Shown here one piece after another: positions 29 through 19,663 of a stretch of 20,000 bases of DNA. The stretch's first letter is position 1. Each line of letters starts with the position of its first letter. The notes below the pieces were generated by a model. The model saw nothing but the letters and a program-made list of their open reading frames with translations. It was not told the origin of the DNA and ran no database searches. The translations under genes and the position numbers were made by a program. Source of the stretch: Thelocarpon superellum (lineage: Eukaryota); assembly GCA_026025795.1 (NCBI GenBank), contig JAPEUG010000042.1:49903-69902 (forward strand). Direction: 5' to 3'.

Positions 29-847
29 TCACAAGACAGAGCGTAAGTACTCGTCCGTTCTGAAAGCCTCATACGGCCCCCTAGCCAAGGAACGCCTTGC
101 AACGTCGATATCGGTCCTGATATCATCCACGAGCGCCTCCTTGCTGACGTAGTCGAACTCGGGCCGAATCCGGCCCAGGATGACAACGTTGAGATGGTGG
201 CGGTAGAAGTCGGCGGGGAAGGAAGCCAGGAGGTGTACTTCGACACTCCGCACGCTGTTCTTGAAGTGCGGGTTCCAGCCTATGCTCATGACCATTGGGT
301 GGATGCTGAAGGTGCTCTCCTTATTCGTTGTGGTGGTGGTGGGGGTGGTGGTGGCAGGCCCAGAGGTGTCGTCGGTGGCGGGATAGACCGCGTCGTCGCT
401 CAGCCCGGCCCATCCGTAGTACACGCCGCTTTCGACTTCTTCGTGTCCGCCCACGCTGAGTCCTTTGACGGGGATATTGGCCGTGGGGATGCCGAGCTGG
501 GGCCCCCCCTACCCGTCAGTGTGTTCCGTCTGAGGTTCCCTCTCGTGCCCTTGTATTGTCCGAGGAGATTCGTTGGAAGAGGGAAGAAGGAGGAGAGTGA
601 GAAGGAAAGAAGGTGACACGAAATTGGTGAGGTTGAGATTGAGGAAAACGAGAGAAAATGTATCAAGATATGGGCGAGAATGGAAGCTGGGAAAACAGTC
701 AGGAGCAGGGTACACACAGATACATACCTCCTTGCTGCCCCTCCCAAACCCGGCAATAACCTCGCCCGAGACGCGAATCGGAAAAGGCGGTTCGGGTCCC
801 GTGGGGGAACCGACGACGGTTTCGCGGGCGGTGGTCGGAGCGTACAT
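29..847 (-). CDS. FMN1: Riboflavin kinase (2 exons: 847-728, 496-29; intron 727-497; ~195 aa)
   Basis: Splicing joins GFGRGSKE to LGIPTANIP (the flavokinase signature), followed by [29 protein letters not shown] and IRPEFDY. The intron has a GTATGT donor, a CTGAC branch point and a CAG acceptor. Confidence 0.95.
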
Positions 848-1488: not shown

Positions 1489-2376
1489 CTAGGTCTCCTT
1501 CGCCCACTGCTTTCCGCTCCATAGTCGCCCTGTCGTCCACAGCCAGTAATCCGGCCCTTGATCAGCCACAGCAGGAAGCTAGGCAACTGATACCCCATGG
1601 CGGCACCAACGCCCTGGTTCTTTCCAACCGGCACCAAGTGCGTCTCGCGAGTATCCTCCTTGAACACTCGGTCATCACCGACAGAGCCCCCCTCCCTCCC
1701 GGCAGCCAGCAGTAAATCACGCTTGATGTTTGCGCACAGGACAGGGATGGCGTTGCAGATGGAATGGACGGCCGGTCGCGCGGACGAGGCCACATCGCCG
1801 ACGGCGTAGACGCGAGGCCCGGCCCCATCCACACGCAGGGTCGAGGCGTTCGTATCAACACGCTTGTCTGACGTGAGGAGCGCTTCGACGATGAAGGTGG
1901 TGGGTGTTGAGACTCGTGCCGGTTGCGGGAATACACAGGTCGGCTTCCAGCGTCTTTCCATCCGCGAGCGTCAGCGCTGCCTTGGACGTGAGGGCATTGT
2001 CGGTCCCTGCGCCCTGTGGCGCCACGGTCTCGACTCGCGCGTCCTTGATGACGGCGACGCCGACCTTGGCGAGATATGCCTCGGCTTTCCTCGCGATGGT
2101 GGGTCGTAGGACGGGCAAAATCTCCGAGCCGGCTGTCACGACGGTGATGGAGACCGTGGGGTGCTCCAGCTTGCCGTTGAACCAACCCGCGCGACCATTC
2201 AGGTATTCGCCGAGCTCCCCGGCCGTCTCGACGCCCGCAGGTCCTCCGCCGGCAATCACGATGCTCTGCGCACTCGGCAGAGCTTCCCGGAACGCGATCC
2301 AGCTCGTGCGCAGGCGCTCGTCGTCTCGATTCAGACTAAGCAAGGGAGAAGGTGTCGATGCGCCAGTGGCGATCAC
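1489..2376 (-). pseudogene. AIF/AMID-like FAD/NAD(P)-dependent oxidoreductase (Pyr_redox_2), 5'-truncated with two frameshifts
   Basis: Motifs VIATG, IVIAGGGPAGVETAGEL and IPATG lie in ORF 1855-2376, and VYAVGDV and WLIKGR lie in a different frame (ORF 1455-1961), so there is a shift near 1900. A second shift near 1550 restores DYWLWTTGRLWSGKQWAKET* (TAG at 1489-1491). No N-terminal FAD-binding GxGxxG segment was found upstream. Confidence 0.85.
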
Positions 2377-2663
2377 GTGGCGGCTTGGAATGAGTGAAAG
2401 CCAGAGAAAATGGCAAGGAGTAGAATATCGATAGATGCTAGATACAGATTGCCAGCAGCTGCACCCGGGCGTCGCATTTAAGATACGAGGAGTAAGAGCT
2501 CACCCCCTATACCAATCGTTGCGGTCGTCGGCGTGATGAGCCAACTGACCGACCTGCTGAACAATCACCCGCGTCCCGCGCTATACGCGATCTCCGACGC
2601 CCCAGGCACATGACGCCACGCGCACCTAGCGAACAGAAGGCGAGGTAGCGAGTAAAGCTGCCA

Positions 2664-3222: not shown

Positions 3223-4338
3223 ATGAAGCTCGAAACGCTCTGGTCGATGACTTTCATTGCCGTGCTCACGCTGCCTCGATTTGGATGTGGACAAGTGCAG
3301 CCACAAGCGACAGCGCTCACATCAATCCTGAAGACGTCCAAACCAGTCCAATTATTGGACAAACAAGACGCTTCCGACGCTTCCGACGCCGTCCCAGGCG
3401 AAAAGAGCTCTGGAAAGAGGGTGATGTTTTTACTCCAAGACGGGGTGATCCGGACAGACTATGGAGATGGAGAGACCAAAGTGACCCAGGCAGATGGAAC
3501 GACAGAACACCATTACCCCGATGGAAGTACGGTGACCGTTAGCGAAGATGGACGCACTCGCACCATCACGAATACCGACGGCTCGAAAACCACCACCACC
3601 ACGGAGCCGGAGCGAAGCGTGAGCCTGAAGCGATTTCAGAATCCGGACGGCTCCTACAATTTCAGAGTCGTGGTCGGCTACGCCAGAACATCCAAGGGAC
3701 GAGTCACGCAAAATCTCCTTGAAATTGAGTGGGTCTATGGGGACCATGGTCCGGTGGTATACGTCGGCATCAATCGACCAAGCTTTAGCGCGCTGACAGT
3801 CCCACGAGATCTCGCGGCCAAGTCCGCGTACGAGAGGGCCCTGAAGGAAAAATGGGTCGCCGAAAATGATCGGATCCTGAGTATGCAAGATGGCTACATA
3901 ATGGAAGCACTCGCCGCCGCCCGTGGCCAGAACGGGGCGGGTATCACCGATGTCAGCTTCACGAAAGCGCTGCTGGAGCGTTTCCTGGGACAACTTCCCG
4001 ATGTCGCCCAAAAACAGTTCGACGGAGTGCAAGAAGGATCCTCGACAAAAGCCCCATATGTTCGCATAGACAGCTGGATTGGGGGCCCAAATGGGCCGAA
4101 AGGGTCGAAAGGGGTATCGAGGCCGACGATAAGCACGACAAGTGTCTGGGACCTAAGTGCTTGGGAGCCCAAGGAGGTCGCCCCAGTCGCCCCAGTCGAG
4201 GTCGACCCAGCTGAGGTCGCGAGTGCTTGGGAGCCCAAGGAGGTCGCCCCAGTCGCCCCAGTCGAGGTCGACCCAGCTGAGGTCGCGAAAGGTATTGGAA
4301 ACGTGGGCAACCGGGCCCCCAACCCCATCTCCGCGTAA
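3223..4338 (+). CDS. Intronless putative secreted protein (371 aa) with xDG beta-hairpin repeats and a C-terminal 22-aa duplication; function unknown
   Basis: Long ATG-initiated ORF with a signal-peptide-like N-terminus (MKLETLWSMTFIAVLTLPRFGCGQ), periodic GDG/ADG/PDG/EDG/TDG turns at about 3440-3600, and coding-like codon use. Confidence 0.8.
   Translation: MKLETLWSMTFIAVLTLPRFGCGQVQPQATALTSILKTSKPVQLLDKQDASDASDAVPGEKSSGKRVMFLLQDGVIRTDYGDGETKVTQADGTTEHHYPDGSTVTVSEDGRTRTITNTDGSKTTTTTEPERSVSLKRFQNPDGSYNFRVVVGYARTSKGRVTQNLLEIEWVYGDHGPVVYVGINRPSFSALTVPRDLAAKSAYERALKEKWVAENDRILSMQDGYIMEALAAARGQNGAGITDVSFTKALLERFLGQLPDVAQKQFDGVQEGSSTKAPYVRIDSWIGGPNGPKGSKGVSRPTISTTSVWDLSAWEPKEVAPVAPVEVDPAEVASAWEPKEVAPVAPVEVDPAEVAKGIGNVGNRAPNPISA
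4156..4287 (+). repeat. Perfect 2 x 66-bp tandem duplication inside the CDS (SAWEPKEVAPVAPVEVDPAEVA x2)
   Basis: 4156-4221 is identical to 4222-4287 and keeps the frame. Confidence 0.95.
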
Positions 4339-4442
4339 CGCCCTCTCGGCGGATTCTTTGGGAATCTGTTCAAATGTTTTGGCCCTTGAATTCGAGAGCT
4401 TGAGAGATCGCCGCGGCTCGGGTTCGCATGCAAGTTTGGTCA

Positions 4443-4537
4443 TCTTCTACTGTAGGAATCAGAGTTGAGGCGGACATACTGCGCGGAGCTAGGATATTGC
4501 ATGGGAGCGCACGTGACTATCTCACGTGCGCCACCTG
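4443..4537 (+). repeat. Right arm of the diverged inverted repeat (partner 2664-2766) with an internal hairpin
   Basis: TCTTCTA..TGTAGGAATCAGAG(T)TGA...GCGCACGTGA-ctatc-TCACGTGCGC, a perfect 10-bp stem at 4507-4516 / 4522-4531, aligns with the reverse complement of the left arm. Confidence 0.8.
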
Positions 4538-4630
4538 TACTCCACCAATTTTGGCAAGAGGCAGGATCGAAGTGTTGAAGGTTGGATGTTGGGTCGCGAC
4601 CAAGATGGGAGAAAATGCCATGAGAGCAGA

Positions 4631-4654
4631 ACATCAAAACATCAAAACATCAAA
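4631..4654 (+). repeat. Short tandem repeat (ACATCAAA)x3
   Basis: Seen directly. Confidence 0.8.
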
Positions 4655-5130
4655 ACAGAAGAACATCGGGTCTAGCTATGCTGTGCCATGTCTCAGATGT
4701 ATCTGTGTAGCAATACGATTGGTCTGACACAATTGACGTGCCAAGCTACTCCTGCTTAGCCACTCGTGCATCAGGGTCAGCGTAGCAAAGCACGCATTGT
4801 AACCCTTCAGACATAGCTCAGCCCAACTCAATGCAGGGATGGGTGGCTTGCAGCCCAACAGGACTGATGGCTTCTATCTTTATCTCGGATGCCACAATGA
4901 TACTGGCTTGCGCTTTCTTCATCCTGGCCGGCTCGAGGCCGAGTCACATTGGTCTTGTCTCGTCGATCAAGCGGTGCTCAGATTGCGGAGTTATAAGACT
5001 CGTCCCTCGACAAGCCCTTGGCTGCCCTCACCGATCGTCAATTGGACCTCAGAATCCCGGGAGATGCCCATAAGCAATGACTCGGTGAGATCTAGTCGTC
5101 CGATCATCTCCTGCGTGCCCAAGTCTCGAC

Positions 5131-7161
5131 ATGCTCTTCTTTCGCGGCATCCTGACATGGACCATGCTGTTGTTGATGAGAGGAAGCGGGGGCCATTCTC
5201 GACATATCCTCGCGACCAAGGGCGTCGGTGGGTTCGAATCGCCGCTCGTGGCCCGTGGCGGCGTATGCTTGTCCACCGACGACCTCAAGACCCAGCAAGC
5301 CGTGGTGATCCGGACTGACGACGGCGACCCCATAGTCGTGCCCACCTATGCCACCGAGGAGGCAAGTGCCGCCGGGCGAGCCTTATTGCAAACAGCTAGC
5401 CGGGCGCTCGCACCTGTACCCGCTGGTCTGTCTGTTGTCTTCCTTGTCATCGACATCCGGAAGCATGACACGAAGGGGACCACCTTTGCCGCCGTGGGCC
5501 TCGCGATCGGCTTGATAGCGCTCGTGGACCAGCCAACCGGGTGGGTCCTCGGCGCCATCTTGGTTCTGATCATGGCGGCCGCGGACGATCTGAAGAACCA
5601 AGAGGCCGCACCGCGGAACAATGCGACGCAGATCATCAATCTGCAGATGTTCGGACAGAAGGACGGGTCGCCCAATGACCCGTGTGCGGCTCATGGAAAC
5701 GTGACGTGCTATGCGTCGTATGGGCCCGCGACCATCTCGCAGCTGTTTGGCTGGAGCACCTTCGAGGCGGTGGTGTTCCTCATCCACTTCAATCAGGGCT
5801 GCGCCATGACCGTGGCGCAGATGGCCAAGGCCTTCTACGTCAATGACCCCAAGGTGGCTAATGACGGCATGAACCAGGTAGCGACGATTGATTGCCACAA
5901 CGGCAAAGCTTCGGTCGATCGAGGCGGCGAGGTCTATGGTGATCTTCCGCAAAACTGCGCACACCCCACCTTCTCCATCAAGAAGCAACTCATCACGTTG
6001 CCGCTGCTGAACCAGACGGCCGACCGGATCGAGCCTCGCATCATCCCCAACCCGGGCGGCGATTGCCTCGTCTACGACACCCTGGCCCAGCCGGAATACC
6101 GCAGCGAGCTGAACGTCACCCTCGTCGGCAACCCGGTCGCCATCACCTGTGGCTTGGTCGCGGCGGTCAACAACGACGGCGTGCTGCAGCCATTGGGAAG
6201 GCCCGTGGCCAACGCGAGCGTGTCGGTGAATGGGACCACGGTGGACGGGACGACGGGCGAGACGGCCGCACTGATCTCGCAGCTGCTGGCCGCCGGAGCC
6301 GATCTAGGTGGCGCAGCCGGGGACAGCGGCAACTCGTCGGAGCTGGTGAACTCGCTCTTGGCCAACGCCAGCGCCGCGGGCCTGATCTCATCCAACACCA
6401 GCTCGACGGATGGAGCGTCTGGCCACTACATTGCACCGCCGTCCTCGCCCCCGCCATGGCAGCCGGTCGATGAGAGCAGCATGGTCTTCCTGGGGGACGG
6501 TAATGATACCTTTGGCCTGCCGAATGGGACGTATCGGTCCGATACGCGGAGCTTCGGCTTTGCCGGGAAGGCCATCAACACCCTGAGCGTGCCGGCGGGC
6601 GGCTCACTTAGCTTTTTCTGGGGGACCAACGATGGACGGCCGGTGCTACGGAACCCGCGGCCCAAGTTCACCTCGGCGCAGACGGCATCTGATCACGACT
6701 TTGTCAAGGGCATGGCCTGGTTGCGACTCTGGGACACCAAGACGTTTGACGTCGTCGTCCCCCACGTGTCGTCATCCGTGTGCCTGTTTACGGAGGTCAA
6801 CTTTGGCGGCCAATACCTCTGCGTCAGTGCCGGCGGCGGCAACGTCACGGACGACATCCGGAACAAGGCGAAGAGCATCTCGATCAACAACGGGCTCCGG
6901 GTCTACATCTTTCCCGACTACTACGGCGCGCTCGGAGAGCGGTTGCTGACGTCGAGCCAGGCGGATTTGTCGGCCGTTGCGTTGGGAAATGGAGATTTCT
7001 CCGAGCGCATCGGGGCTTTGTGGATTGACGACGGGACGGGCATGAATGCCACCGGCTCAGGGATAGGCGTGGACCCAGGGAATGTCGTATTTGATGGATT
7101 TGGCAATCCAGTCGGTCAGGGGTCGGCCCAAAACTCGTCGGGAGGTGCCGATGTGCTGTAA
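5131..7161 (+). CDS. Intronless putative secreted protein (676 aa) with a hydrophobic helical hairpin, a Cys-containing core and a C-terminal beta/gamma-crystallin-like domain
   Basis: Hydrophobic N-terminus (MLFFRGILTWTMLLLMRGSGG). Hydrophobic segments GLSVVFLVI, FAAVGLAIGLIALV and GWVLGAILVLIMAAA at about 5425-5583. The C-terminus VCLFTEVNFGGQYLCV...IRNKAKSISINNGLRVYIFPDYYG...DLSAV...FSERIGALWI (about 6778-7026) fits the beta/gamma-crystallin Greek-key pattern. Many NxS/T sites and strong GC3 codon bias. Confidence 0.85.
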   Translation: MLFFRGILTWTMLLLMRGSGGHSRHILATKGVGGFESPLVARGGVCLSTDDLKTQQAVVIRTDDGDPIVVPTYATEEASAAGRALLQTASRALAPVPAGLSVVFLVIDIRKHDTKGTTFAAVGLAIGLIALVDQPTGWVLGAILVLIMAAADDLKNQEAAPRNNATQIINLQMFGQKDGSPNDPCAAHGNVTCYASYGPATISQLFGWSTFEAVVFLIHFNQGCAMTVAQMAKAFYVNDPKVANDGMNQVATIDCHNGKASVDRGGEVYGDLPQNCAHPTFSIKKQLITLPLLNQTADRIEPRIIPNPGGDCLVYDTLAQPEYRSELNVTLVGNPVAITCGLVAAVNNDGVLQPLGRPVANASVSVNGTTVDGTTGETAALISQLLAAGADLGGAAGDSGNSSELVNSLLANASAAGLISSNTSSTDGASGHYIAPPSSPPPWQPVDESSMVFLGDGNDTFGLPNGTYRSDTRSFGFAGKAINTLSVPAGGSLSFFWGTNDGRPVLRNPRPKFTSAQTASDHDFVKGMAWLRLWDTKTFDVVVPHVSSSVCLFTEVNFGGQYLCVSAGGGNVTDDIRNKAKSISINNGLRVYIFPDYYGALGERLLTSSQADLSAVALGNGDFSERIGALWIDDGTGMNATGSGIGVDPGNVVFDGFGNPVGQGSAQNSSGGADVL

Positions 7162-11110: not shown

Positions 11111-12835
11111 TCAGGTCCAGAGATAAGACACCGACCTCGACCCCGATCCGGCCCCGGCTGAACCGGACTTGCCCGCTTCCAACCGGCTGGGCGTGGCCTC
11201 GTGCGGCCGAGGGGCCGAGGCCTCGCGTGGTGCTTCGCGTGGGACGGACCGACGGGCTTCCGACGGCTCGGAAGGTCGTCGCGGCTCGACCGGATCATCC
11301 GTCTCCATGGTGTCGTCGTCGTCATCGCCACCCTCAAAGTCGCGAGGATGAGACGTGGGGTCCTCTGCAGACCGACCGCCTGATCGACCAAGGTTGTATA
11401 AAAATTCCTTGGACGCCTCTGTTGGGCCAAGTGACCGCTGCCCCGCCAGACCAGCGCTCGGCCGACTCTCGTGTACGACGGCCTTCCATTTGGCCAGGAG
11501 TCGGTCGTAGTCCCAGGTAGTGAGCGCCGCGCTGGGACCACCTTTGATCTGTCGCAGCGTCTCCGAGGAGATGGGCAGGTTCGTGGGCGGGTGCAACAGG
11601 AATTCACGCGGCTGCTGTTGATGGTTCAATCGGTCCACTTGGGCCTTGAGATTCTCCACCTCCTGTCGGGCCAGCTCAAGCTGCGTTACCGTCTCCTTGC
11701 GCTGGCCTTGCTCGCGTGAGTAGGCGCGAAGGAGCTCTAAGCGCCACGCGTCTTGCTTCTGCTTCTCGGGCAGCTGCGACCAATGGTTGAAGGCATCCGC
11801 CAGATGCTGGAGCACCTTGCCCTCTTCCCGCTCGTTCGCTTGCGCCACGTCGGTCGGCGAGGTGCTCTCGGCTTGATCGAGTCCTTCGACGATGTCACGG
11901 AGCGACGTCGTTCGCGCCGGGCGCGTCTCGCCGCCGACGCGGTCAGACCGCCACTGCTCGTAAAATCGGCGGAAGTGGCGCGTCAGCGCCTCGAACTGCA
12001 TCTGCCCGGGTGCGTCGGTGGACCAGGAATCAAGCGCCGGGAAGGGCTCGGTGGAGAAAAGGGTGGGAGGGGGCGAGAGACACTGCAGCACGAGGCCAGG
12101 GAAGGTACAGGCAAAGGGATCAAAATCGAGTGGCGTGGAGGCACGCACGGCGCGGGTACTATGAACGCACGTTAGCATAGTCTGGCCGGGCGCGGGGACG
12201 AGCGTGCGCGACGAGGGAGGGAGGTCGCCCCACCTGGCCGCCTTGATGCTGCCCAAGACTTCTTGCAACGCCAGCTCTGCCGCATGGCCATGGTCGAGGG
12301 CCTCGCGCACCTTCAAGCGCTGGTCCAGACTGGTGCGCGAGGGATGGCCTCGCGACACCTCTCGTCGCCCGGATGGCCGCGAGCCCGTCTCGAGATCGCG
12401 AGCGGCGGCCCGGCCGGAGCGCCAGTCCGCCTCGCTGTAATGTGCGGGGCCTCGCCCGCCAAAGGACTCCAGCTGCAACACGCGCAGCGAGGGCGAGGTC
12501 ATCGAGGCCTCGGGTGAGGCGTGGGCGGAGATGGAGCTGGCCCCGCGTGAGGTGCGCGCCTGCCGGCGGGTGATGCCGCCCCGCGCCTTGCGGATGGCCT
12601 CGATGTCGTGCACGCCATCCGGAGGCTTGGGGTTCTTGTCCTTGATGTAGAGGTCAAGGTGACGACCCAGCGAGGACGACGTGAAGGCTTGGTTGCAGTA
12701 GGGACACTTCTTGTCCTTGGGCGCCGACGACCGGGCCACGCCCTGGTCGGCGCTGGAGCCCGGTGTGCTCGGCGTGGCTTCCGCCATCGGGCGAGAGGCG
12801 GGGCTAGGCGATTGCGGAGGGGGTGACAGCAGCAT
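11111..12835 (-). CDS. Conserved fungal hypothetical protein with an N-terminal CxxC...H motif and a coiled coil; in-frame 75-nt intron at 12233-12159; start at 12835 or 12787
   Basis: Motif KDKKCPYCNQAFTSSSLGRHLDLYIKDKNPKPPDGVHD...ITRRQ, recalled as conserved in Pezizomycotina. It also has FPGLVLQCLSPPPTLFS, WRLELLRAY, a heptad segment and WDYDRLLAKWK. The intron runs GTGGGG...GCTAAC...TAG. Confidence 0.85.
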   Translation of the reverse strand: MLLSPPPQSPSPASRPMAEATPSTPGSSADQGVARSSAPKDKKCPYCNQAFTSSSLGRHLDLYIKDKNPKPPDGVHDIEAIRKARGGITRRQARTSRGASSISAHASPEASMTSPSLRVLQLESFGGRGPAHYSEADWRSGRAAARDLETGSRPSGRREVSRGHPSRTSLDQRLKVREALDHGHAAELALQEVLGSIKAARWGDLPPSSRTLVPAPGQTMLTCVHSTRAVRASTPLDFDPFACTFPGLVLQCLSPPPTLFSTEPFPALDSWSTDAPGQMQFEALTRHFRRFYEQWRSDRVGGETRPARTTSLRDIVEGLDQAESTSPTDVAQANEREEGKVLQHLADAFNHWSQLPEKQKQDAWRLELLRAYSREQGQRKETVTQLELARQEVENLKAQVDRLNHQQQPREFLLHPPTNLPISSETLRQIKGGPSAALTTWDYDRLLAKWKAVVHESRPSAGLAGQRSLGPTEASKEFLYNLGRSGGRSAEDPTSHPRDFEGGDDDDDTMETDDPVEPRRPSEPSEARRSVPREAPREASAPRPHEATPSRLEAGKSGSAGAGSGSRSVSYLWT

Positions 12836-12945
12836 GGACTTCACGAGAGCGAGACGACGAGATAGAACCACCCGATTGGGAGGAGCAGAGATGCGAGGAC
12901 ACGCGCGCGCTGAGAAGGAGGGAAAGACGAGGCAAGCCGCGTGGT

Positions 12946-13009
<64 letters not shown>
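12946..13009 (+). repeat. Poly-G homopolymer (64 nt)
   Basis: Seen directly. It is poly-C on the sense strand just upstream of the minus-strand gene. Confidence 0.95.
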
Positions 13010-13010
<1 letters not shown>

Positions 13011-14489
13011 GAGGAGGAGGACGTTGGGCAGGTGGAGTGAGAGGCGAGAGGCAGCGCAGGCGGACTTAGGTCGAAAGGTGATCAAGGAGGACGCACAAAG
13101 GATGGAAGCTGAAGGGAGGGATCAAGGCAGGATGGGATGACGAGTGAGAAGAGGCAGCGTCCTTCATACTCCAAGTCGGACGCGATACTTGGGCCAGGTG
13201 CCGCTCGGGGTCAAGCGACCCTTGTATTTGTGCGCCGCAGGGTCGGGAGTACGTGGACGGCGTGATCTACACGGTGCGCTTCTCCGGGCTTGAATGGGTC
13301 GCCTCGTTCAGACCGGGGGGTGTGTGGTGTTTGGTGGGCCGCGTGCAGAGCGCCATGTGCTGCATCAGCCGGCGTGTAGGGCAGCGCAGGACGAACTTTG
13401 GCTTCGACGAAACTCGAGTCCCGAGACAGGCATTGCACGGACGGCGCTGGTGGAGTCCTGTCCAAGCGAGCTCAAGTTCACGCCTCAGCTTTCACTCATC
13501 CGGCATATGCAGGTTCGAGAAGGTGTCAGAGGGGCTTCTAGCTCCTCGAAGGAACGGATTGTCGTCCGCGATGGTCGGGCAGGGGAAGGAGCGGACGGGA
13601 AGGGTGGGAGCGAGGGTGGACGGGAGACCAGTCAGGGAAGGGATGTGACGAAGCGAGAGGACGTGTCGGCCATGGCGGCGATGAGCCCGATGGCCGTCGG
13701 CCATCAACCGCGTGCCGACCTACTGCTCTAGTAGGTCGGCCACTGGTCGTTGACGGGCGGCCCTGGTCCTTGGGCGTTCTGCGACGTGCGCTAGACATAC
13801 CGGTACACGCTGGCCGTAGAAGCTCTTCAGACATTCTAGTCGGAAGAGGCGATTCTAGTGGCAGCTCGACGTGGATCGCCTGCGGCTTACCTTTCCCATC
13901 CTAGGGCGAGTGTCACTGGAGCGCCCCCGCGAGGGGGCCGGGGGCGCTCCAGGGTCCTCCGGGACACGACGATCACACTGCCGAGCGAAAGGTGCGGCCA
14001 CCCACCCGGCCCCCACCCCAACCCCCGTCGTCAATAATATCACCGCGACTAGTTCCGCTAGTCACGAAATCTGCCGGTCGCCTGTGGATTTTAGGATGCG
14101 TGACCGGGGCCTCGTAACGCGCTGGGCGGTATCAGAAATGTTCACCATCGTCCGCACTGTGAGGAACGTTGCATGAAGCGACTTCATGCGGAGAAGCAGA
14201 TTATGCTTAACCTCGAGCCTCATGCATATCCGACCGTTGCATCGACTGCGACGACTGCTACTTGGACGAAGATGCCGTCTCGGCGACGACTGCCGAAGAA
14301 TTGCTCTCCCCACCCCAACCTCACCCATGACGCGTCGATCCACCACCACTCTGGTCGTGCGCCGTCGCTCTTGGGCTCGCACGCAAAGCTATACATGGGG
14401 ATCACCGTCTCAGCGTGCCACAATCCCCCGATCGGCCAGCATGAATACCTCTGCACGACGGCCACCTCCTCGGCGCTCTGACTGATCGA

Positions 14490-16663: not shown

Positions 16664-17873
16664 TCAGAGTGAATCTGAACAATCCAGATGCTGTCGTACA
16701 TTCAGGTTGATCCGTCGCCTCGACATCCAACCCCTCCACGCTTCATAGTCGTCCTCTGCACGACCTACTGCATCACCATGTGCGCGTGGCGTTGCGGGCC
16801 AGTCTTGCATCCAGGTGGGGCACGAGCCTGCAATCACTCGTGGAACGCCATGCCACGCATACCGAGCGGCACCAGTCATGTACACCACGTCTCCTGAGCG
16901 GAGGCGGAGGACCATGTAGGTCGGCCGGCCATCGGGCTGCTCGAGCCCAGCGACGAAGAGCGCGTCGCAGCCGAGACTGGCGCTGATGAGGCCCCGGTGG
17001 CACTGTTCACTCACGTCACGATGGAGACCCAAAGTATCGCCAGGGGAGTAGAGGTTCACGATGGCTGCTTGCGGGCTCATCTCCGGGAAGAGCCCTTGCA
17101 AAAGATGGACAAGGTCCGGGGGAAAGGGCGGAGGGGTCTCGTCGGGGTAGACCTTTTGCGTCCAATCATATTGATACCCGAGCGTCATCCAGCGGAGTTT
17201 CTTGGCCAGAAACGCCGCGGCCGACAAGGACTGCGGGCCAGACGGAGGTTTGCGCTGGCAGATGTCTGGCGTAGTGGGGTCTTGCGTAAAGAAGGATGGT
17301 CTGGCAATCGTGGGCTTTGTGGCCGACATTCCCTGCTCCCGATAGATGGGATTGACTTCTTCGGCATAGTGAGCTGCGTTGTGAGGGTAACGGATATCGT
17401 AGTGCAGATGGACATTGGTCTTGTGCTGTGGATTGGAGAGGTCTCGATGTAAGAGTCGCGACAACAGCGCCAATTGGGCGGTAGGAGGCAGGAGCGATGG
17501 GTAGATGTAAAGACCTATAGCGGAGCGAATCAGCCGGAATACGCTTGATGAGAGCTGGAACAAACGCCGGTCAAAGCTGACCCGGGATAGTGCTCGACCT
17601 GTATCTAGGCCGATCCTTTAGATCTTGAATGATCGTAGAGGTCTCGTCAATCACGGTGCCACACGATGACACGATGACCTCGGCGCTTACATCACCATCA
17701 TGATGAATCGTCGCCCAGTGTTCGTCTGTGATGCCTCTGACAAAGTCGACGATATCTGGCTCGCGATCGACGCTCTCGGGTTCGATCTTCTGGTAGTACT
17801 TATACACATCGCGCAGGACTGAGGGCGGGGCGGCATGCGCATTCCTCTGCCCAGCGCCGGTTGGTTCAGCCAT
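16664..17873 (-). CDS. AlkB-family 2OG-Fe(II) dioxygenase, ALKBH1/abh1-like (exons 17873-17582, 17514-16664; ~380 aa)
   Basis: Motifs KLRWMTLGYQYDW, PQAAIVNLYSPGDTLGLHRDVSE (HxD), LRSGDVVYMTG, WHGVPRV (distal His) and RINLNVRQ (RxxxxxR). The intron 17581-17515 runs GTCAGC...CTGAT...TAG and restores IPGLYIYP. Confidence 0.93.
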
Positions 17874-18471: not shown

Positions 18472-19663
18472 ATGGAAAACTATCAGAAGATCGAGAAGAT
18501 CGGCGAAGGTCCACCCACTTCCATCTCATGCCACAAAGTGGCGGGCTCTACAGAGACTGACCGTGACGATACATGAGTACAGGCACGTACGGGGTGGTCT
18601 ACAAGGCCCGCGACCTGACGCATCCGACTCGGATCGTTGCGCTGAAGAAGATCCGCCTCGAGGCCGAGGACGAAGGCGTTCCGAGCACAGCGATCCGCGA
18701 AATCTCGCTGCTGAAGGAGATGAACGACCCGAACATCGTGCGCTTGCTCAACATCGTCCACGCCGACGGACACAAACTCTACCTCGTCTTCGAGTTCCTA
18801 GACCTCGACCTGAAGAAGTATATGGAGGCGCTACCCGTGAGCGAGGGCGGCCGCGGCAAGGCGCTCCCGGACGGCTCGGGCGTTGAGCTGGGCCGGCTCG
18901 GGTTGGGCGATGACATGGTGAAGAAGTTCATGAGCCAGCTGGTCGAAGGTGTGCTGTACTGTCACAGCCATCGCGTCTTACACCGCGACTTGAAGCCGCA
19001 GAATCTCCTGATCGATAGGGAAGGCAATCTGAAGCTGGCCGACTTCGGGTTGGCGCGCGCATTCGGAGTCCCCTTGCGCACTTACACCCACGAGGTCGGT
19101 GCCACGTGCCCTCCCCTCCTCCTTGACCTCGCTCTGACAGCATGGCCCTGCAGGTGGTGACGCTGTGGTACCGCGCGCCCGAGATTCTCCTGGGCGGGCG
19201 ACAATATTCGACGGGGGTGGACATGTGGTCGGTCGGGTGCATCTTCGCCGAGATGTGCACTCGCAAACCTCTCTTCCCTGGCGACTCGGAGATTGACGAG
19301 ATCTTCAAGATCTTCCGGTGAGTGAGGCGGCTGGGACGGGGATGACAGAGTGCGTGACTGACGTGTTCGGGCAGCCTTCTGGGAACGCCGGACGAGCTCA
19401 TCTGGCCGGGCGTGACCAGCCTCCCCGACTTCAAGACGTCATTCCCAAAGTGGTCTCGCAATCACAGCGAAATACTGGTGTCCGGGCTCGAGGGGCACGG
19501 GCTCGACCTTCTCGATGCCTTACTCTACTACGACCCGGCGAAGCGCATCTCGGCGAAACAGGCTTGCCAACACCCATACTTCGAGAACGGGGCGAGCGCG
19601 TGGTCGGGTCGCGGACCCAAGAGCCAGACTGGGTCCCAGTCATCTCAACCTCCGAAGTACTAG
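18472..19663 (+). CDS. CDC28: Cyclin-dependent kinase 1 (Cdc28/Cdc2/NimX); exons 18472-18508, 18583-19094, 19154-19317, 19375-19663; ~333 aa
   Basis: Motifs [75 protein letters not shown] and [13 protein letters not shown]. Three GT-AG introns with CTGAC branch points give an open 1002-nt CDS. Confidence 0.98.

What the first reader, a model, noticed from the sequence alone, without database searches (positions are those of the whole stretch)
5131..7161. Secreted beta/gamma-crystallin-domain protein with a pore-former-like hydrophobic hairpin
Seen: signal-like N-terminus, then a Gly/Ala-rich hydrophobic helical hairpin (about 5425-5583), a Cys-containing middle domain, a Ser/Gly/Asn linker and a C-terminal crystallin-like module; the gene is intronless in an otherwise intron-bearing neighbourhood. 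Known: the beta/gamma-crystallin fold occurs in microbial antagonistic proteins (Williopsis mrakii killer toxin, Streptomyces killer-toxin-like protein) and in Ca2+/surface-binding modules, and hydrophobic hairpins are the membrane-inserting part of alpha-pore-forming toxins. Inference: an uncharacterised fungal toxin or effector with a binding domain plus a membrane-insertion domain.
Basis: partly seen in the sequence, partly recalled or inferred. Interest (0 to 1): 0.7.

Follow-up and report, generated by a model that had tools for sequence, protein, structure and literature searches.

The report
Lichen-fungus membrane protein with crystallin tail
This gene is a divergent copy of an unstudied, multi-copy protein family seen so far only in lichen fungi, combining greasy membrane helices, a disulfide-rich domain and a lens-crystallin-type binding domain; nothing yet shows that it is a toxin.

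Summary

It belongs to an uncharacterised family: 201 representatives at E<=1e-3, and all 14 organism-named proteins come from 7 lichen-fungus species, with 6 paralogs in one genome.

- a signal peptide;
- a PPPDE/DeSI-like papain-fold domain, whose His-Cys dyad is kept or lost together;
- a disulfide-closed dibasic loop;
- three conserved hydrophobic helices.

The window copy lacks the N-domain. A signal-peptide ORF 793 nt upstream (3223-4338, same strand and frame) matches that domain only weakly and may be its detached remnant. The copy keeps 78% of the family's conserved positions against a median of 91%.

Best reading (about 0.5): a secretory-pathway protein held in the producer's membrane by the hydrophobic helices, with glycosylated binding modules outside. 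A killer-toxin or AB-toxin-like role (about 0.2) and a decaying paralog (about 0.2) are not excluded.

The parts
3223..4338 (+). Upstream ORF P0151 (371 aa): signal-like N-terminus, DG[ST]-rich repeats, and a Pro/Glu/Val tail with a perfect 66-nt tandem duplication. It is a possible detached, catalytically dead remnant of the family's PPPDE-like N-domain.
   Evidence: ORF and translation. Hydrophobic 10-mer KD 2.06 at aa 8-17. It is the top six-frame hit of the N-domain HMM (E 0.0028; next best 1.7). Shuffle controls: 1/2000, 4/2000 and 275/2000 shuffles reach the real score with three HMMs. hhalign is weak. L004 N-domain aa 188-227 matches window 3922-4032, E 0.032. No relatives of 204-650 aa were found. 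The catalytic-Cys position reads Val.
4339..5130 (+). A 792-nt gap between the two ORFs. The frame they share is closed by P0151's own stop (4336-4338) and eight more stops inside the gap.
   Evidence: 31 GT..AG pairs would keep the frame open, but none has a strong consensus. Gaps between the ORF pieces in related loci are only tens of nt.
5131..5196 (+). Signal-like N-terminus of the ORF (aa 1-22). It is not conserved.
   Evidence: KD 2.12; pLDDT about 30; the tblastn match with P0002 starts at 5353.
5242..5268 (+). First recognisable family residues (LVARGGVC, ending at Cys46). They correspond to the second Cys of the family's dibasic disulfide loop. The first Cys and the dibasic sites are absent here.
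   Evidence: Read by eye against P0013. Cys46 column is Cys in 30/46 rows. Loop statistics.
5416..5577 (+). Gly/Ala-rich hydrophobic region: seg1 aa 96-108, seg2 aa 117-130, seg3 aa 136-149. Compared with the family, seg2 is 4 residues shorter and the ILPGLF motif is lost.
   Evidence: pLDDT below 50.
5608..6165 (+). Conserved alpha/beta domain with six near-invariant cysteines (aa 160-345). Fold unassigned. The family motif FGDxxHTGNExC reads FGQKDGSPNDPC here.
6166..6402 (+). Variable Ser/Gly/Asn/Ala linker (aa 346-424) with two low-confidence helices.
6403..6765 (+). Beta-rich domain (aa 425-545). The family Cys pair at aa 453/462 is lost in this copy. A crystallin-like nature is not established.
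   Evidence: pLDDT 80-96. F453 against Cys in 94% of rows, G462 against Cys in 95%. No profile similarity to the crystallin domain. Two-domain crystallins align over about 190 columns but at rmsd about 16 A.
6769..7038 (+). Single beta/gamma-crystallin domain (aa 547-636) with two Greek-key signatures (F553..F558-x-G560 and Y592..Y597-x-G599) and a conserved Cys551/Cys564 pair.
7039..7161 (+). Gly/Ser/Asn-rich C-terminal tail (aa 637-676) plus the stop codon. Most relatives end 0-5 residues after the crystallin domain and lack this tail.
   Evidence: pLDDT 35-43.

Best explanation
The ORF is an intact but divergent, N-domain-less paralog of an uncharacterised family. Every organism-named member found so far comes from a lichen fungus.

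Family plan (shown): signal peptide; PPPDE/DeSI-like papain-fold domain; disordered linker with a Cys...KR/RR...Cys loop; three conserved Gly/Ala-rich hydrophobic helices; a three-disulfide alpha/beta domain; a variable linker; a beta-rich domain; and one canonical beta/gamma-crystallin domain.

How it most likely works (inferred): the protein enters the secretory pathway. The hydrophobic helices are integrated into the producer's membrane, most simply with seg2 and seg3 as a helical hairpin so that both flanks face out. The disulfide-bonded, N-glycosylated C-terminal modules, ending in the crystallin domain, are then displayed on the cell surface as binding modules for wall, glycan or partner-cell ligands.

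In this locus the enzyme-like head is not in the ORF. The signal-peptide ORF at 3223-4338 may be its detached, catalytically dead remnant, which would make this a gene fission or disruption rather than a normal intron.
For: Family and distribution:
- E 4.6e-85 to a Caeruleum heppii protein. The exhaustive search gave 201, 141 and 66 representatives at E<=1e-3, 1e-10 and 1e-30.
- Of 31 proteins whose names were seen, 14 carry an organism. All are lichen-fungus records from 7 species, 6 of them from one genome.

Location outside the cytosol:
- Eight near-invariant cysteines, and N-glycosylation sequons at aa 294, 422, 465 and 571 kept in 45-60 of about 100 rows.
- WSC domain inserted in 2 of 51 members.
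- Signal-like N-termini in 39 of 55 full-length rows.

Membrane segments: median lengths 19, 21 and 17 residues, median KD 2.0, 1.7 and 2.25, with sequence motifs conserved beyond mere hydrophobicity.

Family N-domain:
- His and Cys are both present in 19 of 51 rows and both absent in 28 of 51.
- In 9 of 10 related loci the N-domain lies directly upstream in the same gene.

This copy: P0151 sits where the N-domain should be, has a signal-like start, and matches the helix after the catalytic Cys. The 676-codon frame is still open.
Against: - No experiment or RNA data support any part of this.
- Topology is unresolved. Three membrane-spanning segments would place the Cys-rich C-terminal part in the cytosol, and basic residues flank both ends of the region.
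- The hydrophobic region models at pLDDT below 50.
- The strong motif conservation in the helices (LD, NGxW, GPxGW, ILPGLF) and the dibasic disulfide loop (32 of 55 rows have the loop, 24 of them with KR/RR) are more than an anchor needs. They fit a processed, membrane-active toxin as well.
- The P0151 link is weak: a clade-specific HMM gives no signal (275 of 2000 shuffles reach its score) and hhalign gives P 0.094.
- This copy has lost family-conserved features and sits on a terminal branch of 1.05 against a median of 0.55. It may no longer work.
Confidence: 0.5

Rival explanations
1. Secreted, processed toxin or effector. The precursor would be cut at the dibasic loop by a Kex2-type protease, giving two chains held by the loop disulfide. 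The crystallin and beta domains would bind the target surface, and the glycine-zipper-like helices would insert into the target membrane as an oligomeric pore, or to deliver the papain-like head.
For: - Dibasic Cys loop in 24 of 55 full-length rows.
- GxxxG-rich helices conserved at the sequence level.
- Multi-copy, fast-diverging and lineage-restricted family.
- Weak Pfam hits to HlyE (2 of 51, E 0.13) and RTX (1 of 51, E 0.23) on the hydrophobic region.
- Gamma-crystallin-like proteins are listed among putative effectors of a lichen mycobiont (passage read in bioRxiv 10.1101/2024.08.16.608140).
Against: - The HlyE and RTX hits are far below significance.
- By general knowledge, helices this hydrophobic should be trapped in the producer's ER membrane.
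- No amphipathic bundle shields them in either model.
- The window copy lacks the loop's first Cys, the dibasic sites and the N-domain.
Confidence: 0.2
2. Decaying remnant: a family gene was broken between its N-domain and the hydrophobic region. Both halves are drifting, and 5131-7161 is an as yet unbroken pseudogene fragment whose 'signal peptide' is a chance ORF extension.
For: - The shared frame is closed by nine stops between the two ORFs: P0151's own stop and eight more in the 792-nt gap. Related loci have gaps of only tens of nt.
- 51 of 65 conserved positions are kept, against a family median of 91% (10th lowest of 69). One disulfide pair, ILPGLF and parts of HTGNE are lost.
- Terminal branch 1.05 against a median of 0.55.
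- The upstream half is almost unrecognisable.
- The first 37 residues are not conserved.
Against: - A 676-codon open frame in 60-64% GC DNA is very unlikely to persist without selection.
- All eight core cysteines are kept, and both domains model at pLDDT above 90.
- Some other members score as low or lower on conserved positions (72-78%).
Confidence: 0.2
3. One ordinary full-length family gene: 3223-4338 and 5131-7161 are exons of a single transcript joined across an unusually long intron of about 0.8-1.1 kb. The true signal peptide would then be that of the upstream exon. This is a rival about gene structure only and is compatible with either function above.
For: - Same strand and same frame.
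- 31 frame-preserving GT..AG pairs exist, for example donors at 4335 (GTAACG) and 4292 (GTATTG).
- The upstream ORF has the length and signal-like start expected of the N-part.
- Family genes do carry introns.
Against: - No candidate site matches a strong splice consensus.
- The interruptions seen in 9 of 10 related loci are short and lie at other positions.
- The upstream ORF runs to its own stop behind a low-complexity repeat.
Confidence: 0.15

Closest known systems
Microbial single-domain beta/gamma-crystallins: Protein S N-domain 1nps, Flavobacterium 3hzb, clostrillin 3snz/3i9h, spherulin 3a 1hdf, Neurospora APP 5z6e
   Different: Here the domain is the tail of a protein of 680-1000 aa with membrane helices. 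The positions of the Ca2+-binding motif N/D-N/D-x-x-S/T-S (motif recalled from memory) read RNKAKS and SERIGA, so canonical Ca2+ sites look disabled. The Pfam score is below the curated cut-off.
Williopsis mrakii killer toxin (1wkt), Streptomyces SKLP (1f53) and AFP1 (1gh5)
   Same: The same broad Greek-key fold class, in secreted antagonistic proteins.
PPPDE/DeSI (Peptidase_C97, 2wp7), CLN5 (6r99) and NlpC/P60-type effectors (TseH 6v98). These apply to the family's N-domain, not to this ORF.
   Different: Pfam scores stay below the gathering cut-off (best 21.1 bits against 29.2). 28 of 51 paralogs have lost both catalytic residues. The domain sits behind a signal peptide and is fused to membrane helices and crystallin modules. 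It is missing from the window ORF, and P0151 has Val at the Cys position.
Yeast K1/K28-type killer protoxins and disulfide-linked AB toxins (comparison recalled from memory, not tested)
   Same: Signal peptide, dibasic processing sites inside a disulfide-closed loop, a hydrophobic membrane-active region, and a surface-binding part.
   Different: No sequence or fold similarity was found. The hydrophobic helices here are more hydrophobic and more numerous. Processing is unproven. The window copy lacks the loop.
Alpha-pore-forming toxins with a buried hydrophobic hairpin (colicin, ClyA/HlyE type)
   Same: A Gly/Ala-rich helical hairpin next to a binding module.
   Different: No surrounding amphipathic bundle appears in the models. 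HlyE Pfam hits occur in only 2 of 51 members at E 0.13.

Membership tests
beta/gamma-crystallin superfamily | A beta-sandwich of about 85-90 residues built from two Greek-key motifs | tested here: met
beta/gamma-crystallin superfamily | Signature [YFW]-x4-[YF]-x-G in each Greek key, plus the structural Ser (signature recalled from memory) | tested here: met
   F553-TEVN-F558-G-G560 and Y592-IFPD-Y597-Y-G599. Ser582 is present in motif 1. Motif 2 has Ala629, which is the family norm.
beta/gamma-crystallin superfamily | Score above the curated Pfam threshold (Crystall / Inhibitor_I36 / Crystall_3) | tested here: not met
   Inhibitor_I36 scores 18.5 bits against a cut-off of 21.1. 16 of 51 relatives hit it at E<=1, best 1.3e-4. 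Sequence-level membership is therefore marginal, and the assignment rests on the fold.
Ca2+-binding microbial beta/gamma-crystallins | N/D-N/D-x-x-S/T-S motif in each Greek key (motif recalled from memory) | tested here: not met
   The aligned positions read R577-N-K-A-K-S582 and S624-E-R-I-G-A629 (alignment to 2k1w; sequence).
WmKT/SKLP killer-toxin-like proteins | Close structural match to the toxin fold as a small free secreted protein | tested here: inconclusive
alpha-pore-forming toxins | Hydrophobic helical hairpin shielded inside an amphipathic helical bundle in the soluble form | tested here: inconclusive
   The hydrophobic region models at pLDDT below 50 with no bundle around it. HlyE Pfam hits in 2 of 51 members at E 0.13. 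No pore-former appears among the listed structural matches.
Unnamed lichen-fungus family (PPPDE-like head, hydrophobic helices, Cys-rich domain, crystallin tail) | Homology across the hydrophobic region, middle domain, beta domain and crystallin domain | tested here: met
   P0003 E 3.2e-86 over query aa 101-635; 66 representatives at E<=1e-30.
Unnamed lichen-fungus family (PPPDE-like head, hydrophobic helices, Cys-rich domain, crystallin tail) | Eight near-invariant cysteines of the middle and crystallin domains | tested here: met
   Cys185, 193, 255, 276, 312, 340, 551 and 564 are all present. The columns are Cys in 71/72 to 97/100 rows.
Unnamed lichen-fungus family (PPPDE-like head, hydrophobic helices, Cys-rich domain, crystallin tail) | N-domain of about 340 aa with a signal peptide in the same reading frame | tested here: not met
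   Only 95 residues precede seg1, against 290-520 in 55 full-length rows. tblastn with P0002 finds nothing upstream.
Unnamed lichen-fungus family (PPPDE-like head, hydrophobic helices, Cys-rich domain, crystallin tail) | Dibasic disulfide loop, the ILPGLF motif, and the Cys pair of the beta domain | tested here: not met
   Only the second loop Cys (Cys46) is present and there is no KR/RR site. A151/D152 replace L/P, and F453/G462 replace the Cys pair.
PPPDE/DeSI (Peptidase_C97), asked of upstream ORF P0151 | Papain-like fold with a His...Cys dyad | tested here: inconclusive
   Only the helix after the Cys position aligns. The Cys position is Val. Pfam gives no C97 hit at E<=1.

The most novel reading that the evidence does not exclude
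The family is a lichen-fungus-specific weapon or symbiosis effector built like a disulfide-linked two-chain toxin. A Kex2-nicked loop would join a papain-like (PPPDE/CLN5-type) Cys-His enzyme head to a glycine-zipper membrane-insertion hairpin and a crystallin-type targeting tail. Paralogs would have diversified, with frequent loss of the dyad, against photobionts, bacteria or rival fungi. The window copy would be a head-less variant that keeps the insertion and targeting parts.
Probability: 0.15. Interest if true: 0.85.

Novelty: new variant of a known kind. Interest (0 to 1): 0.5.

Why it matters
Lichen fungi are hard to study experimentally, and few lineage-specific surface or secreted protein families of theirs have been described. 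This one is multi-copy and every organism-named member comes from a lichen fungus. It combines known folds in an arrangement I did not find described: a PPPDE-like hydrolase, conserved glycine-rich membrane helices, and a beta/gamma-crystallin domain.

It could mark how the fungus touches, recognises or attacks its partners. The paired retention or loss of the His-Cys dyad gives a clean, testable split between enzyme and pseudo-enzyme paralogs. For the window gene itself the value is smaller, because it is a divergent, head-less copy of uncertain activity.

Four full-text searches found no description of such a family. Only listings and one set of passages were read, so this is not proof that the family is unpublished.

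Tried and rejected
- Whole genome: none is held for this window.
- RNA evidence: no RNA holder was listed. The four DNA runs laid gave only short, low-depth, near-identical contigs, with too few differences for any test of selection and no joints.
- Complex prediction (P0001 aa 155-640 with P0151 aa 24-300): the queue was full and the tool was then declared unavailable. Nothing was folded.
- ESM Atlas: no usable hit by features for the whole protein or for aa 155-350. Structure rows all had TM below 0.5, mostly crystallin-bearing bacterial clusters.
- PDB by sequence: nothing significant with the single protein (best E 0.81) or the family profile (best E 0.18, a poly-Ala artefact).
- Second crystallin domain at aa 425-545: profile-profile comparison found no similarity (P 0.14), and structural alignments cover only one domain's worth of residues. 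Not established.
- BFVD viral library: only crystallin-domain hits in giant viruses.
- P0151 relatives of near length: none.
- Profile search of the word-indexed collection with A2 returned only 7 unnamed proteins, so it added no taxonomy.
- Metagenome scans: alignment A1 was rejected for lack of a conserved stretch, and P0001 alone found nothing. The smaller alignment A3 gave 10 loci.
- Earlier findings of this scan: nothing to show.
Full report
**1. The observation**

Window 5131-7161 (+) is an uninterrupted ORF of 676 codons. It lies in a stretch whose GC content rises to 0.60-0.64, against 0.54-0.58 in the flanks.

Kyte-Doolittle scanning finds hydrophobic peaks at aa 89-107, 114-132 and 129-147. 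There are ten cysteines and fourteen N-x-S/T sequons.

Pfam gives one sub-threshold hit: Inhibitor_I36, a beta/gamma-crystallin-type family, at aa 547-596 (E 0.0019, 18.5 bits, cut-off 21.1). PDB sequences give weak hits to two bacterial beta/gamma-crystallins on the same stretch (E 0.8).

**2. Relatives**

The word-indexed search found only one relative, a Caeruleum heppii MAG protein of 845 aa (E 4.6e-85). The exhaustive HMMER search of 1.84 billion representatives found 201 proteins at E<=1e-3, 141 at E<=1e-10 and 66 at E<=1e-30.

I looked up 30 of the 150 listed representatives, and P0002's name came. Of these 31, 14 carry an organism name, and every one is a lichen-fungus record:
- Caeruleum heppii, 6 proteins
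- Piccolia ochrophora, 2
- Bacidia gigantensis, 2
- Thelocarpon impressellum, Vezdaea aestivalis, cf. Caloplaca sp. and Ramalina farinacea, 1 each

. The other 17 are unnamed metagenome or assembly proteins.

NCBI files four of these genera under 'leotiomyceta incertae sedis'. That they are lichen-forming is from my own knowledge.

So the family is multi-copy and, as far as this sample shows, lineage-restricted.

**3. Family architecture**

Most full-length members are 820-1000 aa. They carry 290-520 residues before the hydrophobic region, where the window protein has 95, and they end 0-5 residues after the crystallin domain, where the window protein has a 37-40 residue tail.

*Signal peptide.* 39 of 55 full-length rows start with a strongly hydrophobic 10-mer (KD>=2.0 within the first 35 residues). 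This is a crude signal-peptide proxy.

*N-domain.* An AlphaFold2 model of relative P0013, built with 51 sequences, reached pLDDT 73.5 and pTM 0.74. Its N-domain (aa 29-225) matches:

All are permuted papain-like (NlpC/P60-type) folds. Pfam supports this only weakly: Peptidase_C97 in 3 of 51 members (best E 3e-4, 21.1 bits against a cut-off of 29.2) and LRAT in 2 of 51.

The stronger argument is internal. At the two columns of a His and of the Cys in an N[DN]CNxF motif, 19 of 51 rows have both residues. Three rows have His only, one has Cys only (it is truncated at the His column), and 28 have neither. Paired retention and paired loss is what a real catalytic dyad with pseudo-enzyme paralogs would show.

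*Dibasic loop.* In the 90 residues before the first hydrophobic segment, 32 of 55 rows have a C-x(4-25)-C loop, and 24 of those hold a KR or RR. Typical loops read CRGRRRGLERRC or CRSKRGLDRRC. I read these as Kex2-type processing sites inside a disulfide. That is an inference.

*Hydrophobic region.* It has three segments with median lengths 19, 21 and 17 residues and median KD 2.0, 1.7 and 2.25, joined by loops of 4 and 5 residues. The motifs are well conserved: APxFIILDFVNGxW, GGAFGAxGLxLG, GPVGW and ILPGLF.

*Location of the C-terminal part.* Several features argue that it lies outside the cytosol:
- Eight cysteines are near-invariant: Cys in 71/72 to 97/100 aligned rows.
- Four sequons are kept in 45-60 of about 100 rows.
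- Two of 51 members carry a WSC domain inserted in the linker.

**4. The window protein's structure**

AlphaFold2 with 111 aligned sequences gave pLDDT 70.3 and pTM 0.70. Confidence is high for aa 160-345 and aa 425-638 and below 50 for aa 1-43 and aa 88-138.

*Crystallin domain.* Aa 547-636 is a canonical beta/gamma-crystallin domain:

. Foldseek gives clostrillin 3i9h at TM 0.81 and rmsd 2.0 A.

Both Greek-key signatures are present. At the positions of the Ca2+-binding motif (recalled from memory) the sequence reads RNKAKS and SERIGA, so the canonical Ca2+ sites look disabled.

**5. How this copy departs from its family**

Homology starts at about aa 38-46, where LVARGGVC compares with LVTRGC of P0013 (read by eye). 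The tblastn match with P0002 starts at 5353.

Compared with the family, the copy:
- lacks the N-domain
- lacks the first loop Cys
- lacks the dibasic sites
- has a seg2 four residues shorter
- has lost ILPGLF
- has lost the Cys pair of the beta domain (F453 and G462)
- reads GSPND where 85-93% of rows have HTGNE

It keeps 51 of 65 highly conserved positions (78%). The family median is 91%, and this copy is the 10th lowest of 69. In a FastTree of 70 rows its terminal branch is 1.05 against a median of 0.55, and it sits unresolved among the Caeruleum-type paralogs.

Yet the frame is open for 676 codons, all eight core cysteines are present, and the folded domains model well.

**6. The upstream ORF**

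ORF 3223-4338 (P0151, 371 aa) lies on the same strand and in the same frame, 792 nt upstream. It starts with a signal-like segment (KD 2.06) and ends in a Pro/Glu/Val-rich tail with a perfect 66-nt tandem duplication.

*For a link to the N-domain:*
- An HMM of family N-parts picks this ORF as the best of all six-frame ORFs of the window (E 0.0028; next best 1.7).
- The aligned stretch is the helix after the catalytic Cys. P0151 reads ...TDVSFTKALLERFLGQLPDVAQKQFDG..., against NDCNSFTQRLLQKMNVDLPE in P0013.
- The same stretch is hit by the N-part of metagenome locus L004 (E 0.032 in a 2.7-kb target).

*Against:*
- Controls are mixed. 1 of 2000 and 4 of 2000 shuffles reach the real score with two HMMs, but 275 of 2000 do with a clade-specific HMM.
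- hhalign gives P 0.094.
- P0151 has no relatives of 204-650 aa.

I put about 0.6 on P0151 being a degenerate N-domain with Val at the Cys position.

*One gene or two?* P0151's own stop and eight more stops close the shared frame between the ORFs. 31 GT..AG pairs would keep it open, but none looks like a strong splice site.

In 10 related metagenome loci, the N-domain lies directly upstream in the same gene in 9. Nine loci are split into 2-5 ORFs, and the gaps are tens of nucleotides, at other positions than the break seen here. An intron of 0.8-1.1 kb here would therefore be atypical, and I favour fission or disruption. No RNA data were available.

**7. Mechanism**

Shown:
- the domain architecture
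- the crystallin fold
- the extracytosolic signatures
- the conservation of the hydrophobic helices
- the distribution of the family

Inferred: the protein enters the secretory pathway. Helices this hydrophobic are integrated into the producer's membrane. Because both flanks carry extracytosolic marks, seg2 and seg3 most simply form a hairpin, with seg1 interfacial or part of the preceding beta-hairpin. The C-terminal modules are then displayed as binding domains. I give this 0.5.

The dibasic loop, the motif-level conservation of the helices, the multi-copy diversification and the enzyme head all fit that reading. The high hydrophobicity, the lack of a shielding bundle and the absence of any toxin homology count against it.

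A decaying remnant (0.2) is the third reading. The long-intron gene model (0.15) concerns gene structure only.

**8. Novelty**

The folds are known, and beta/gamma-crystallin domains are known in fungi (Neurospora APP, 5z6e). Gamma-crystallin-like proteins have been listed among putative lichen effectors (passage read in bioRxiv 10.1101/2024.08.16.608140).

I did not find this combination, or this family, described in four full-text searches. Only listings were seen, plus the passages. I rate it a new variant of a known kind. The family is of moderate interest, and this head-less, divergent copy is of lesser interest.

Noticed in passing
window 4156-4287: A perfect 66-nt tandem duplication (2 copies, 100% identical) inside the 3' end of ORF 3223-4338. 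It encodes SAWEPKEVAPVAPVEVDPAEVA twice and looks like a very recent duplication.
   Followed up: no
window 3463-3537 (P0151 aa 81-105): Sub-threshold Pfam hit to Tcp10_C repeats (E 2.8e-5, 24.1 bits against a cut-off of 36) in a DG[ST]-rich repeated stretch. Moss-metagenome contigs show a divergent allele nearby, with 12-13 differences over 3441-3612.
   Followed up: partly
window 11111-14000: Very GC-rich (0.63-0.70), strongly GC-skewed region (+0.2 to +0.3) holding a 586-656 aa ORF on the minus strand. It has no Pfam family apart from a faint C2HC zinc-finger hit.
   Followed up: no
window 32-508(-), 1858-2499(-), 16667-17617(-), 18567-19157(+) and 19358-19660(+): Ordinary fungal neighbours: riboflavin kinase, a pyridine-nucleotide-disulphide oxidoreductase fragment, an AlkB-like 2OG-Fe(II) oxygenase, and a protein kinase split between frames, implying introns.
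   Followed up: partly
family alignment A2 (relatives, not the window): His and Cys of the PPPDE-like N-domain are kept together in 19 of 51 rows and lost together in 28 of 51, which marks enzyme and pseudo-enzyme paralogs. 24 of 55 rows have a KR/RR-bearing disulfide loop before the hydrophobic helices.
   Followed up: partly
relatives P0022 (aa 668-747) and one more member of A2: A WSC domain (E 1.1e-16) is inserted in the linker between the Cys-rich domain and the C-terminal domains.
   Followed up: no
L001-L010: Nine of ten related metagenome loci have the gene in 2-5 consecutive ORFs in different frames, with gaps of tens of nt, at varying positions. L001-L003 and L009 are interrupted inside the second hydrophobic segment. 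This implies short introns or assembly frameshifts.
   Followed up: partly
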